Position numbers and translations under genes: made by a program. Below the pieces are notes generated by a model. That model ran no database searches. It was not told the origin of the DNA and saw nothing but the letters and a program-made list of their open reading frames with translations. A DNA stretch of 64,000 nt from the human T2T-CHM13v2.0 reference genome, Homo sapiens. This document shows positions 14,160-16,840 of the stretch, in pieces (the stretch's first letter is position 1; each line of letters starts with the position of its first letter). The DNA is taken from NCBI RefSeq assembly GCF_009914755.1, contig NC_060934.1, one strand, 5' to 3'.

Positions 14160-16840
14160 CGAAAAATCGCATTCTCTTTATTACGCCTTCGATCCCTAGG
14201 AGAACCTAAGTTCAAGAGGAGATGCTGGGCAGGGAGGGGCCAGCCACTTGCTAGGGTGCCCCAGCCCCTGTCTGCTTCAAGAGCCAAGTCATTTTCTCCT
14301 GGACCCCTCTGAGCTGAAGACAGGAAGAGCCGGGGGAGGGGGATCTCTTGGTCTGCGCCTCAGTTTCTCAAGAACAGCAACAGCAGAAAAATAAATTGAG
14401 AGATGAAGGGGCTACCACCATCCAAGTGGCCACAACCATCCACTCCCATGCCGGCCTGGAGTTAGCAGACGGGCGCCACTTTGCTCTGCTTGTCCCACGC
14501 CCATGGAGGGGGGACACCGTCCGGAAGTGAAGGCCAGGAAAACAGAGGGGAGAGACAGCGGGGTGGGGTGGGAGCAGTCGCTGCTGTGAACTCGCTGGAG
14601 CCCAGACTCACGCAACTAAGGGGCAGCAGTGGGAAGAGAAACGGAGGGGTGGTGGGGGAGCTGGCGCTCTGAACGCCTGTTCCTTCTGTTCAGACTAGTC
14701 TTTGTTTATTTTGCAGCGCAGGAAGGCGGAAGGGAAGGCGGAGACCGGCAAGAGAGGGGAGAAGGCCCGGGGAAGACGCTCGGGACCAAGATGCGGGGCC
14801 CGGGTGCGAGCAGCTGAACCTCTCGGCCCCCAGGCGTGGTGACCTGGGTGGCGACGCTCGTGGAGGCCGAGGAGCTTCTGGACCGGCGCTTCGGGGGACC
14901 AAGTGGAGAGGCTGCTGGAGTTGTCGCCTGAGTCCTCCCTTAGTTCTTCGCGCCGGCCTCGCCCACGGCTCCGGGTCCCAGCCGCCACTGCAGTCTCCGC
15001 AGCACCGAGCGGGGCTCCACCGACTCGCGACCTCCAGCCTCCGCCTCAAGGGCAGGGAGCGCGGCTGGGTCTCTGGAAAGCCATTTTTAAATCACTGCCT
15101 CTGCTGCCCCCATGTGAGGTCGGAGTGTCCTCCCCCGTCTTTGCTTTCAGGTTCTTTCAGGTTCCTTTGGGCAAACCCGCAGCTAAGAGTCCAGCTTGTG
15201 AACTTGAACCTGAACTTGCTGAAGAAGCTCCCGGCGGCCCCCTGCTGTCTGCGGCCTTTGTTTGAGGGAGAGGCTGGGGTCACCCGGTTGGGCCGCATTT
15301 CCGGGGCCGTCACCTGTCGGGCTGCCAGGCCGCGCGTACCTTGTCCCATCGGGGGCTCTGCTCTGCCCCCTGCGCTGATGACGCGGGTGGAAGGGAGGTA
15401 TCAGGGGCACTCTGGGGAGCTGTACCTGGCGGGCACCCCCCAGCTGCTCTCCGTGGGGTACGACACCGAGACCTGGTTGGGCTGCAAGGAGACCGACTGG
15501 GATTCCCGGGCTGGTGGCCGGGGAGACGAAGGCGGGGGGTGAGAGGCAGGAACCCAGGAGGCCCCAGGCCCAGCGCTGTGGGGCTGCTGTTGTCGTTCTG
15601 CGTGGAGGTCTGGCCAAACTGGCTTTTGCCCCGAGTGAGGAATTCCTGCTCTTTTTTGGTTTTGGTAAGAGGTCGCTATTCACAGAGGGGGCGGGGTTCG
15701 TCCCCTCCAGGCGAGTACGGGGCTGGCGGGCGCAGTGCTGCCTTTCTGCTCTGTCTCTTGATCCCGCTTAGGATCTTTGTGGCTCCTCTGAGTCTTCTTA
15801 GAGAGGCCGTGAAAGATGGGAAAGGCAGGTTGCTGAAACGCTGCTGCTCGGGGCTGGCAGAGACCCTGGTATAGGGAAGGCGCACCACTGTGGGTCAGAT
15901 CAGCTGACAGTGGGGGTTTTAGGTGATGGGGTAACCTTACAGTTCGGATCTCTTAGAACCCAGAAGCAGGTAGGCGATCGCTGCTTCATCACACTTCACA
16001 GGGAGTCCTGGATCTTTCCTGTCCGTAACCCATGGACGCCATGATTCAGTATGGCGGAGGTCCGGGGCTTAAGTTCCTGTTCATGCTTCCTAATCATTCA
16101 TGGATCCATCACAATGTGCTCTGAAGGGCCTCTCTTGCTGGGATTGAGAAGGATACATTTTTTGAGCAGGTTTTTATACTCAATGGACATGTAGAAGGGA
16201 ATATATTCTACTCAGTTCCCCTCCTGCAGCTCCTTGAAATTCTGTCCATCAAAAGCAGGGATCTGCTGACCAGAGGTGACTGCCACAGAAGGTATCCAGT
16301 TTGTAAAAGCTGAATTTGTTGCTGAAGCCAGAATTTGCAATCTTGATGTTTGTGTTAACATCCAAGAGCGTGTTTTCTGCCTTTAAATCTCTGTGGACAA
16401 TACGTTTCTGGTGACAGCTTGCACAGCAGACACTTTTGGTAGAATTTGCTTCAGTCCTTTTTTTTTCTTTCCTGCTGCCATGAGCAGGTATTCACAAACT
16501 TCTCCTCCTGGCTAGTGTGCTTCATGACAAAGCAAAGAGATTCCTCAATATCGATCACAGCAAATGTTTCACTATGTTGGGGTGATCCGAGCCTTCATGG
16601 TTCCTACTTTGTGGATGGTGTCTGGAGGAGATCTGCTGAGTCTCATCAATGAACTTCACAGCTGCTGCTTTCCCAGTTAAGAGGTCCCAGGCCAACCTTA
16701 CCTTAGCCAGGTTGCCCTTGACGATGGTCTCAAGGATCCTAGCTGCCAGTAAGGGTCCCTTCTCAGCAGAGATGGCTGAGAGGCCCTGTGGCATGTGAGA
16801 CTTACTGCTGGGCTTGGAGTCAAGGTGTCCCAGGTCAGCT
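14160..16840 (-). pseudogene. MARK2 (processed pseudogene): Processed pseudogene (retrocopy) of MARK2 (Par-1b/EMK1 kinase): near full-length, intronless, with frameshifts and stops
   Basis: Minus-strand translation follows MARK2 in order across many exons with no introns. N-terminus and kinase domain: LGHLDSKPSSKSHM (~16835-16792); [46 protein letters not shown] (~16395); [12 protein letters not shown] (DFG->NSG); [47 protein letters not shown]. Spacer: RVSASPEQQRFS (MARK2 RSVSANPKQRRFS); SRNSSLGAKASL (SRNSPLLERASL); PTESS (PTESN); VTPASPS..GAAGSFFSKFRFKF..LSCGFAQRNLKEPESKD (VTPASPS..GASGSIFSKFTSKF..LSFRFARRNLNEPESKD). KA1 and C-terminus: QPRSL (KPRSL); LLGLH..PGH (LLCMHGTPGH); CKINKD* at ~14695 (SKIANELKL*). 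Minus-strand AATAAA at 14177-14182. MARK2 sequences are from memory; the 3'UTR extent (14160-14690) is inferred. Confidence 0.9.
14480..15900. promoter_or_regulatory. CpG island and probable promoter built from the 3' half of the MARK2 retrocopy
   Basis: Hand count: 18 CpG in 14881-15060 vs 0 in 16141-16320. Motifs: CCGGAAGTG (ETS) 14521-14529, TGTTTAT (forkhead) 14703-14709, GCCATTTT (YY1) 15080-15087, GGGGGCGGGG (Sp1) 15687-15696. Plus-strand donors at 15114, 15665, 15970. Confidence 0.8.

What the first reader, a model, noticed from the sequence alone, without database searches (positions are those of the whole stretch)
14160..16840. CpG-island promoter that is the 3' half of a dead MARK2 retrocopy
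Seen: MARK2 homology does not stop at the obvious kinase fragment (16.0-16.8 kb). It runs colinearly on the minus strand through the whole CpG island: spacer (RVSASPEQQRFS, SRNSSLGAKASL, PTESS), GAAGSFFSKF..RNLKEPESKD, KA1 remnants, and C-terminal CKINKD* at ~14695. One insertion has two opposite fates: 0 CpG in 16141-16320 versus 18 CpG in 14881-15060, and the CpG-rich part carries ETS, YY1, Sp1 and forkhead motifs and splice donors. Established: methylated retrocopies lose CpG by deamination; retrocopy-derived CpG islands can become regulatory (e.g. the PPP1R26P1/KIAA0649 copy in RB1). Inference: this half stayed unmethylated in the germline and was exapted as a promoter, most likely firing antisense to the pseudogene. 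Automated pseudogene calls may cover only the kinase half and miss the island's origin.
Basis: partly seen in the sequence, partly recalled or inferred. Interest (0 to 1): 0.88.

Follow-up and report, generated by a model that had tools for sequence, protein, structure and literature searches.

The report
CpG island on old MARK2 pseudogene
A 1.35-kb CpG island in the last exon of the human non-coding RNA gene LINC00865 sits on the tail half of a very old dead copy of the MARK2 kinase gene, but most of its CpGs arose after insertion and there is no evidence yet that it works as a promoter.

Summary
MARK2 homology runs exon by exon on the minus strand from window 16899 to about 14978, and again through the 3'UTR from 14652 to 14170. 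The only strong CpG island in the 64 kb (14541-15890) lies inside this retrocopy.

Corrections:
- The retrocopy spans about 14170-17619, far more than the annotated MARK2P16.
- The CpG-densest core (14653-14977) has no detectable MARK2 or other homology, and the "CKINKD*" C-terminus is unsupported.
- The parental kinase exons were already CpG-poor.
- Only 9 of the 50 CpGs in the spacer segment sit at parental CpG positions.
- 19 of the 23 CpGs shared with a duplicated sister copy on chr10 are derived.

Six other MARK2 retrocopies decayed to CpG o/e 0.08-0.20, against 0.56 here. This supports long-term germline hypomethylation.

Promoter use is untested. The annotation shows a LINC00865 splice acceptor at 14717, not a start site. 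Promoter motifs are not enriched. A published CD4+ T-cell bisulfite study reports a differentially methylated region that maps onto the island.

Verdict: a new member of a known kind (retrocopy-associated CpG islands).

The parts
14170..17619 (-). Full extent of the MARK2 processed pseudogene. RefSeq MARK2P16 covers only 16275-16840.
   Evidence: Colinear exon-by-exon blastn matches to the parent locus C11:63856078-63900362. The 5' limit comes from homology shared with the independent retrocopies on C4 and C7, which ends at 17612-17619. The 3' limit is the parental 3'UTR end, with AATAAA at 14177-14182.
17132..17619 (-). 5' leader of the retrocopy. It is shared by at least 6 other MARK2 retrocopies and matches pieces of the parent locus 9-14 kb upstream of exon E02. 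These are probably alternative 5' exons.
   Evidence: The parent matches are C11:63841900-63842261, 63845346-405 and 63847015-127. The reading as alternative 5' exons is inference; the parent's annotation was not available.
15955..16899 (-). Kinase and UBA coding remnants (parent exons E02-E12). CpG-depleted, with many stops and frameshifts.
   Evidence: Pfam Pkinase E 9.4e-12 on 16252-16491. MARK2 and MARK3 chains are the top PDB matches. 15900-16840 has 12 CpG, o/e 0.23.
14978..15946 (-). Spacer, tail and first third of KA1 (parent exons E13 to the first ~115-150 nt of the last coding exon). CpG-rich part of the island.
   Evidence: 50 CpG in 935 nt, o/e 0.56, for 15012-15946.
14653..14977 (.). 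Island core with the highest CpG density and no detectable homology to MARK2, to the sister copy or to anything else in the genome.
   Evidence: The parent has about 1.2 kb between the flanking matches; the window has about 0.33-0.36 kb.
14170..14652 (-). Remnants of the distal MARK2 3'UTR, with the polyadenylation signal at 14177-14182. No poly(A) tail or target-site duplication is left.
   Evidence: 66-87% identity to C11:63899556-63900362. The search for a target-site duplication and an A-run found nothing.
14541..15890 (.). CpG island. By the stricter Takai-Jones-type criteria it is 14431-15440.
   Evidence: 1350 bp, 86 CpG, GC 0.64, o/e 0.63. It is the only island of this size in the 64-kb window.
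14717..18360 (+). Terminal exon of LINC00865, antisense to the whole retrocopy. The acceptor TTTGTTTATTTTGCAG|C lies at 14701-14717 and the AATAAA at 18340-18345.
   Evidence: Hub annotation (NR_038382.1). Acceptor and poly(A) signal were read.
14452..15881 (.). Published differentially methylated region (CD4+ T cells, systemic sclerosis against controls), mapped from hg19 chr10:91596710-91598139.
   Evidence: PMC10239181 supplementary file 1. The mapping is my own, from the shared exon (hg19 91596975-91600618 = window 14717-18360, both 3644 nt). It assumes no indels between the assemblies.
15375..15434 (.). RefSeq functional element of type 'silencer' inside the island.
   Evidence: Hub annotation only. 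Not checked with any tool.
6791..7090 (.). Small CpG cluster at the annotated LINC00865 start (6993). Its homologue forms the CpG-dense core next to the sister retrocopy on chr10.
   Evidence: 15 CpG, o/e 0.81; sister locus 93299931-997 and 93300083-135 match window 7021-6954 and 6881-6828.

Best explanation
Window 14170-17619 (minus strand) is one ancient processed pseudogene of MARK2.

Structure (shown)
- Its GC-rich 3' part (spacer, tail, start of KA1, part of the 3'UTR), together with a 325-bp core of untraceable origin, forms a 1.35-kb CpG island.
- Most of the island's CpGs were created after insertion, and many arose before a DNA-level duplication of the locus.
- LINC00865 is transcribed from 6993 on the opposite strand. 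It uses an acceptor inside the island (14717), so its terminal exon is the antisense of the retrocopy.

Inferred
- The island has been kept free of germline methylation.

Most likely working
- It is an orphan, intragenic CpG island whose methylation-free state is held by factor binding or weak, tissue-restricted initiation. The germline or testis is the likeliest place; one case report states that LINC00865 is highly expressed there.
- In somatic cells its methylation is variable.
- I put a true internal start site of LINC00865 or an unannotated transcript at about 0.4. This is not shown.
For: - Colinear exon-by-exon homology to the MARK2 locus. The parent is identified as MARK2.
- Island criteria are met.
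- CpG o/e in the same mRNA segment: 0.56 here and 0.42 in the sister copy, against 0.08-0.20 in 6 of 6 other MARK2 retrocopies aligned. Per-match values across 12 further loci point the same way.
- Only 9 of 48 parental CpG positions are retained, yet the copy has 50 CpGs. Of 23 CpGs shared with the sister copy, 19 are non-CpG in the parent, and the other retrocopies mostly agree with the parent.
- The sister copy shares flank beyond the retrocopy's 5' end, to window 17976, and shares the LINC00865-start cluster. The duplication was therefore at the DNA level.
- A New World monkey 'low quality MARK2' protein carries the residues after exon E18 that only this copy has, so it is the ortholog.
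- Acceptor and poly(A) signal of the LINC00865 terminal exon.
- A published region of differential methylation coincides with the island.
- LINC00865 is said to be highly expressed in testis (PMC9204271, passage seen).
Against: - No start site is annotated in the island (hub table).
- Promoter-type motifs are at or below chance.
- The only functional annotation is 'silencer'.
- The island part is no more conserved between the two duplicates than the kinase part (10.6% against 10.9% mismatches), so there is no sign of extra constraint.
- The core cannot be tied to MARK2, so part of the island may be foreign DNA.
- CpG 'gains' are scored against the present-day parent on alignments of 70% identity. 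Some are parental losses or alignment error.
- Germline hypomethylation is inferred from composition only.
Confidence: 0.6

Rival explanations
1. The island is an exapted promoter that fires antisense to the pseudogene. A start site in the island on the + strand gives short LINC00865 isoforms.
For: CpG-island composition has been maintained for a very long time. Published work shows that CpG islands not tied to other genes often serve as new promoters near retrocopies: 103 of 200 novel human retrocopy promoters (PMC4772013, passages). The RB1 CpG85 precedent was seen as abstracts.
Against: RefSeq puts the LINC00865 start 7.7 kb upstream and an acceptor, not a start, in the island (hub table). 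There is no enrichment of Sp1, ETS, YY1, NRF1, CCAAT or TATA motifs. No expression or chromatin data could be consulted.
Confidence: 0.35
2. The island is a non-promoter regulatory or Polycomb-type island (a silencer, or a methylation-variable element). It is unmethylated in the germline but does not initiate transcripts.
For: A RefSeq 'silencer' lies at 15375-15434 (hub table). The island is reported as a differentially methylated region in CD4+ T cells. Promoter motifs are lacking.
Against: The basis of the silencer annotation was not seen. The methylation study had 9 cases and 4 controls, and its gene list is rich in imprinted genes, so it may simply flag regions of intermediate methylation.
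Confidence: 0.3
3. The core of the island (14653-14977) is foreign or newly arisen DNA that replaced about 1.2 kb of the retrocopy. The MARK2-derived parts are only shores of an island whose origin is not the retrocopy.
For: No homology was found in any test. The parent has about 1211 nt where the window has about 360. CpG density peaks there.
Against: The MARK2-derived flanks meet island criteria themselves: o/e 0.54-0.62 in the E14, E16 and E17 matches. The CpG gains shared with the sister copy lie in MARK2-derived sequence. Extreme divergence plus deletion of retrocopy sequence would look the same.
Confidence: 0.3
4. The CpG richness is a neutral by-product, for example of GC-biased gene conversion at a recombination hot spot, with no function and no special methylation state.
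For: There is no sign of stronger conservation than in neighbouring pseudogene sequence and no motif enrichment.
Against: Biased conversion raises GC content but does not protect methylated CpG. An o/e of 0.6-0.9 held across a duplication, against 0.08-0.20 in six sister retrocopies of similar GC origin, needs reduced germline methylation (established knowledge of CpG decay).
Confidence: 0.08

Closest known systems
RB1 CpG85 in the PPP1R26P1 retrocopy
   Same: A CpG island lies inside a truncated or decayed retrocopy that sits within another transcription unit. The island's methylation is not uniform in somatic cells (abstracts of PMC3839921 and PMC3760807; for this locus).
   Different: CpG85 is a proven alternative promoter and a maternally methylated imprint. 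It descends from small CpG islands in the parental reading frame and is restricted to primates. Here no start site or allelic methylation is shown, most CpGs are new, the host is a lncRNA, and the insertion predates a duplication with 11-19% mismatches between the two copies.
Retrocopy-associated CpG islands in general (Rademacher et al. 2014, PMC4122923: 665 in the human genome; examples in ASRGL1, PARP11, PDXDC1)
   Same: Same class: an island overlapping a retrocopy. Those authors conclude that its epigenetic fate depends on the sequence and on the integration site (passages).
   Different: That study covered intronic islands of protein-coding genes absent from mouse. This locus is not named in the passages I saw (0 occurrences of MARK2 in the main text). 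Its supplements were not read.
Orphan CpG islands and novel retrocopy promoters (Carelli et al. 2016, PMC4772013)
   Same: An island not tied to a protein-coding promoter, lying next to or on a retrocopy. [quoted passage not shown]
   Different: In that work the island drives the retrocopy itself, in sense. Here any transcription known runs antisense and starts elsewhere.
Other human MARK2 retrocopies (at least 12 further loci found here; the sister copy at G000 C10:93.30 Mb)
   Same: Same parent mRNA and the same 5' leader, with similar identity to the parent (66-84% per exon match).
   Different: All but the sister copy have lost their CpGs. The sister copy has lost the equivalent of window 15125-7021, and its island core is the homologue of the LINC00865-start cluster.

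Membership tests
Processed pseudogene (retrocopy) of MARK2 | Intron-less, colinear match to consecutive exons of the parent | tested here: met
   19 colinear matches spanning parent exons spread over 44 kb are packed into 2.7 kb of the window. Exon-by-exon table.
Processed pseudogene (retrocopy) of MARK2 | The parent is MARK2 rather than MARK1, MARK3 or MARK4 | tested here: met
   The parent-locus exon translation matches solved MARK2 chains best; the 7 best rows are MARK2. The tail motif RNLKEPESKD matches the parent's RNLNEPESKD. The kinase piece alone cannot separate MARK2 from MARK3.
Processed pseudogene (retrocopy) of MARK2 | Poly(A) tail and target-site duplications | tested here: not met
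   AATAAA is kept at 14177-14182, but there is no A-run after it and no direct repeat of 8 nt or more (at most 1 mismatch) between the two ends. This is expected for so old an insertion, so it does not argue against membership.
Processed pseudogene (retrocopy) of MARK2 | Disabled reading frame | tested here: met
   There are many stops and frame changes. The longest stop-free piece on the MARK2 path is 102 aa.
CpG island (Gardiner-Garden/Frommer and Takai/Jones criteria, thresholds recalled) | Length at least 200 or 500 bp, GC at least 0.50 or 0.55, CpG o/e at least 0.60 or 0.65 | tested here: met
   14541-15890: 1350 bp, GC 0.64, o/e 0.63. 14431-15440: 1010 bp, GC 0.65, o/e 0.64.
KA1 domain remnant | Match to Pfam KA1 (PF02149) or to the parent's C-terminal 80 residues | tested here: not met
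   0 families for the four frame pieces over 14693-15091. The parent exon gives KA1 at E 1.5e-21 as a positive control. Only the first ~115-150 nt of the last coding exon are recognisable.
Retrocopy-derived CpG-island promoter (RB1 CpG85 type) | The island lies within retrocopy sequence | tested here: met
   The island 14541-15890 lies inside the retrocopy 14170-17619. However, 325 bp of it cannot be traced to the parent.
Retrocopy-derived CpG-island promoter (RB1 CpG85 type) | Transcription start site inside the island | not testable with these tools
   No 5'-end or chromatin data were available. The annotation shows an acceptor at 14717 and no start (hub table). Motifs are at chance.
Retrocopy-derived CpG-island promoter (RB1 CpG85 type) | Allele-specific (imprinted) methylation | not testable with these tools
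   A case-control methylation difference is reported over the island. There were 0 occurrences of LINC00865, KIF20B or MARK2P16 in 12 of 17 supplementary files of a nanopore imprinting survey (5 files not searched).
Germline-unmethylated island | CpG retained or gained where methylated copies of the same sequence decay | tested here: met
   o/e 0.56 here, against 0.08-0.20 in 6 of 6 other retrocopies over the same mRNA segment. The methylation state itself is inferred, not measured.

The most novel reading that the evidence does not exclude
[quoted passage not shown] It would be an intragenic island, born de novo on a retrocopy scaffold before a segmental duplication. It would be methylated in one germline because LINC00865 transcription runs through it, and it would act on the unmethylated allele as an internal promoter or insulator for LINC00865 and its neighbours. 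The hint is that a bisulfite study lists this exact region next to GNAS, H19, MEST, KCNQ1OT1, RB1 and PARP11.
Probability: 0.1. Interest if true: 0.6.

Novelty: new member of a known kind. Interest (0 to 1): 0.3.

Why it matters
It is a clean, datable example of a CpG island growing on a dead gene copy.
- Twelve or more sister copies of the same mRNA serve as internal controls that lost their CpGs.
- A sister duplicate shows that many of the CpGs had been gained before the duplication.
- The island therefore reflects creation of CpGs as well as protection from loss. This bears on how orphan islands arise.

It also corrects the annotation. MARK2P16 is about 3.45 kb, not 566 bp, and the terminal exon of LINC00865 is almost wholly antisense pseudogene sequence. 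Methylation studies that report 'LINC00865' hits are therefore reading a retrocopy-derived island.

It is not a new kind of element.

Tried and rejected
- Pfam on 18 stop-free frame pieces: only Pkinase; no KA1, no UBA.
- PDB sequence search with the 133-aa frame over the core: 0 matches at E up to 10.
- Protein database searches meant to obtain a true MARK2 sequence:
  - one search gave only the orthologous monkey pseudo-protein;
  - one search gave nothing among longer proteins;
  - searches gave only 8 fragments.
  These became unnecessary once the own genome proved searchable.
- Bridging the core to MARK2 was tried four ways and failed.
- The idea that the core is a tandem-repeat expansion: Tandem Repeats Finder found only three tiny arrays.
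- The idea that the core is another gene's exon on the + strand: the long open frames there are what GC-rich DNA gives, and nothing suggested coding. Not searched further.
- The idea that the island part is more conserved between the duplicates than its neighbours: the blastn identities including gaps suggested it, but the mismatch-only count does not (10.6% against 10.9%). Dropped.
- Rfam on 12000-19500: 0 families.
- Literature:
  - 'MARK2P16': 0 papers.
  - 'cg14423021': 0 papers.
  - A coordinate-prefix search gave 2 irrelevant papers.
  - 'LINC00865': 24 papers (23 listed), none with the term in its title; the four with it in the abstract are three cancer prognostic signatures and one case report, and I read passages of three of the 24.
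The roughly 3-kb loci already held were merged and used instead, so some copies are covered only in part.
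Full report
**What is there**

Window 14160-16840 was read on the minus strand. A scan of the whole window finds one substantial CpG island: 14541-15890, 1350 bp, 86 CpG, GC 0.64, o/e 0.63. By stricter criteria it is 14431-15440. 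The whole window holds 433 CpG at o/e 0.18. There are two small clusters, at 6791-7090 (the annotated LINC00865 start, 6993) and at 31541-31810.

**Is it MARK2 all the way through?**

The window's own genome proved searchable, so the parent locus was fetched (G000 C11:63826001-63903000). Translated parent exons match solved MARK2 chains best, and the parent's last coding exon carries Pfam KA1.

blastn of the window against the parent gives 19 colinear minus-strand matches from 16899 to 14170.
- They cover a 5' coding exon, the kinase and UBA exons, four spacer and tail exons, a 30-nt exon at 97% identity, the first 115 nt of the last coding exon (15121-15012) and the distal 3'UTR (14510-14170).
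- A finer search adds 14652-14513.

Homology left of 15900 is therefore real and significant.

**What is not MARK2, as far as can be shown**

No method finds homology between about 15011 (DNA) or 14978 (a weak out-of-frame peptide match, E 0.027) and 14653:
- blastn at word size 6 gives only chance-level or non-colinear low-complexity hits;
- a global alignment to the rest of the KA1 coding sequence scores no better than dinucleotide shuffles, with 215 of 500 shuffles at least as good;
- an nhmmer profile built from the parent, the retrocopies that matched its last exon, and the MARK1 and MARK3 exons matches only 15116-15011;
- a whole-genome search with 14640-15030 finds only itself;
- Pfam finds no KA1.

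The parent has about 1211 nt between the flanking matches, where the window has about 360. The proposed C-terminus 'CKINKD*' at 14695 is unsupported. It would lie only 43 nt from sequence that aligns to position ~966 of the 3'UTR. This stretch is also the CpG-densest part (200-nt windows with 17-20 CpG, o/e 0.78-0.88).

**The retrocopy is longer than reported**

At least six other MARK2 retrocopies share sequence with the window upstream of the first coding-exon match. For the copies on C4 and C7 this ends at 17612-17619. Pieces of this leader match the parent locus 9-14 kb upstream of that exon. I read these as alternative 5' exons; this is inference.

The 3' end keeps AATAAA at 14177-14182. 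No poly(A) run or target-site duplication survives. The element is therefore about 14170-17619, against 16275-16840 for RefSeq MARK2P16.

**Controls from the gene family**

The genome holds at least 12 further MARK2 retrocopy loci. They differ in exon content, with or without two spacer exons, so they came from different mRNA isoforms.

Over the same mRNA segment (spacer to KA1 start):

| Copy | CpG / length | o/e |
|---|---|---|
| This copy | 50 / 935 nt | 0.56 |
| Sister copy, C10:93.30 Mb | 33 / 800 nt | 0.42 |
| Six other copies | 2-9 each | 0.08-0.20 |

This is the strongest evidence that the 3' half here escaped the usual methylation-driven decay.

**Two corrections to 'one insertion, two fates'**

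First, the parental kinase exons are already CpG-poor: 14 CpG in 738 aligned nt, against 26 in 573 for the spacer part. Two of them have none.

Second, the island did not merely keep its CpGs. Of the 48 parental CpG positions in the segment, 9 are still CpG, 14 are TG or CA, 21 are other and 4 are gaps. Of the copy's 50 CpGs, 9 are CpG in the parent.

**The sister copy dates the gains**

The window copy and the C10:93.30 Mb copy are 85% identical in this segment. Each is 70% identical to the parent and 56-63% to the other retrocopies.

Their homology continues past the retrocopy's 5' end to at least 17976. The CpG-dense DNA that follows the sister's truncated retrocopy matches window 7021-6954 and 6881-6828, the LINC00865-start cluster. 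The locus was therefore duplicated as DNA, and the sister later lost the equivalent of window 15125-7021 (likely; it rests on two short colinear matches).

Twenty-three CpGs are shared by the two copies. Nineteen of them are not CpG in the parent, and the other retrocopies mostly agree with the parent. Many CpGs therefore arose after insertion and before the duplication.

Mismatches between the duplicates are 10.6% in the island part, 10.9% in the leader-to-kinase part and 13-19% elsewhere. This gives no evidence of special constraint.

A New World monkey 'low quality MARK2' protein carries residues that only the window copy has after the 30-nt exon. The copy is therefore at least that old.

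**Function**

LINC00865 (hub table) starts at 6993. Its terminal exon begins inside the island at 14717, behind TTTGTTTATTTTGCAG, and ends 15 nt after an AATAAA at 18340-18345. The known use of the island by the host RNA is therefore as a splice acceptor and exon, antisense to the pseudogene.
- No start site is annotated in the island.
- The classical CpG-island promoter motifs tested (Sp1, ETS, YY1, NRF1, E2F, CCAAT, TATA) are at or below dinucleotide-shuffle expectation: 1 GGGCGG against 2.6, 0 CCGGAAG, 0 YY1, 0 NRF1, 0 CCAAT, 0 TATA. The CRE half-site (2 against 1.63), a loose forkhead core (1 against 0.21) and + strand donor-like sites (2 against 1.17) lie a little above their means but are not significant.
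- RefSeq marks a 'silencer' at 15375-15434 (hub table; its basis was not seen).
- Rfam finds nothing.

**Literature**

- 'MARK2P16' appears in no searchable paper.
- 'LINC00865' appears in 24 papers, none with the term in its title.
- One bisulfite study of CD4+ T cells (9 patients, 4 controls; regions of at least 60 CpGs) lists LINC00865 among its differentially methylated genes (passages). Its supplementary file 1 gives the region as hg19 chr10:91596710-91598139, p = 1.9e-8. By the shared terminal exon this is window 14452-15881, that is, the island. The mapping is mine and assumes no indels.
- That list is rich in imprinted loci and includes RB1 and PARP11, two known retrocopy islands. This may only mean that the method flags intermediately methylated regions.
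- A nanopore survey of imprinted regions has no mention of the locus in the 12 of 17 supplementary files searched.
- A case report states high testis expression of LINC00865 (passage).
- Retrocopy-associated CpG islands are a described class, with 665 in the human genome (Rademacher et al. 2014, passages). CpG islands often underlie new retrocopy promoters (Carelli et al. 2016, passages). The RB1 case was seen as abstracts.

**Verdict**

Its details need correction in four respects:
- the extent of the retrocopy;
- the core that cannot be traced to any source;
- the unsupported C-terminus;
- the fact that most CpGs are new rather than preserved.

Germline hypomethylation is well supported by the family controls but remains an inference. 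The promoter claim is untested and has nothing in its favour beyond island composition. This is a new, well-controlled member of a known class, not a new kind of element.

Noticed in passing
window 17132-17619; parent G000 C11:63841900-63842261, 63845346-405, 63847015-127: The MARK2 retrocopy family shares a ~500-700-nt 5' leader. It maps to scattered pieces 9-14 kb upstream of the first matched coding exon of MARK2, which suggests that the source mRNA used alternative 5' exons. Two of the parent matches overlap in the window, so one may be a repeat.
   Followed up: partly
G000 C10:93296652-93300135 (merged loci L002, L006, L007, L009): This is a sister duplicate of the whole locus, 2.6 Mb away on chr10. 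The retrocopy is truncated after the 30-nt exon. It is followed by an A-rich stretch and a CpG-dense block (93299806-93300405, up to o/e 1.15) that is homologous to the weak CpG cluster at the LINC00865 start in the window. This implies an ~8.1-kb deletion in the sister copy.
   Followed up: partly
G000 C3:147077724-147077900 (L008): A short fragment carrying only the first two matched coding exons of the retrocopy. It is 95.5% identical to the chr10 sister copy and 92.7% to the window over 177 nt, so it is probably a later secondary duplicate of the sister copy.
   Followed up: partly
at least 12 loci in G000 (C4, C5 x2, C6 x2, C7 x2, C8, C10:84.19 Mb, C11:29.5 Mb, C12, C17): MARK2 has an unusually large family of old retrocopies (66-84% identity per exon match). 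They differ in exon content, with or without two spacer exons, so they represent several independent retropositions of different isoforms.
   Followed up: partly
window 6791-7090: A small CpG cluster (15 CpG, o/e 0.81) lies at the head-to-head overlap of LINC00865 (start 6993, + strand) and LOC105378424 (start 8321, - strand). It is much weaker than the downstream island.
   Followed up: no
window 14500-14900 and 15400-16000: The + strand shows a strong positive GC skew (up to +0.32) over the island flanks. This is probably inherited from the pyrimidine-rich sense strand of the MARK2 tail and 3'UTR rather than a mark of transcription.
   Followed up: no
window 16381-16416: The pseudogene reads [12 protein letters not shown] where the parent reads CHQKFIVHRDLK. 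The R is the MARK3 state in the solved structures. This is why the kinase piece alone ties between MARK2 and MARK3.
   Followed up: yes
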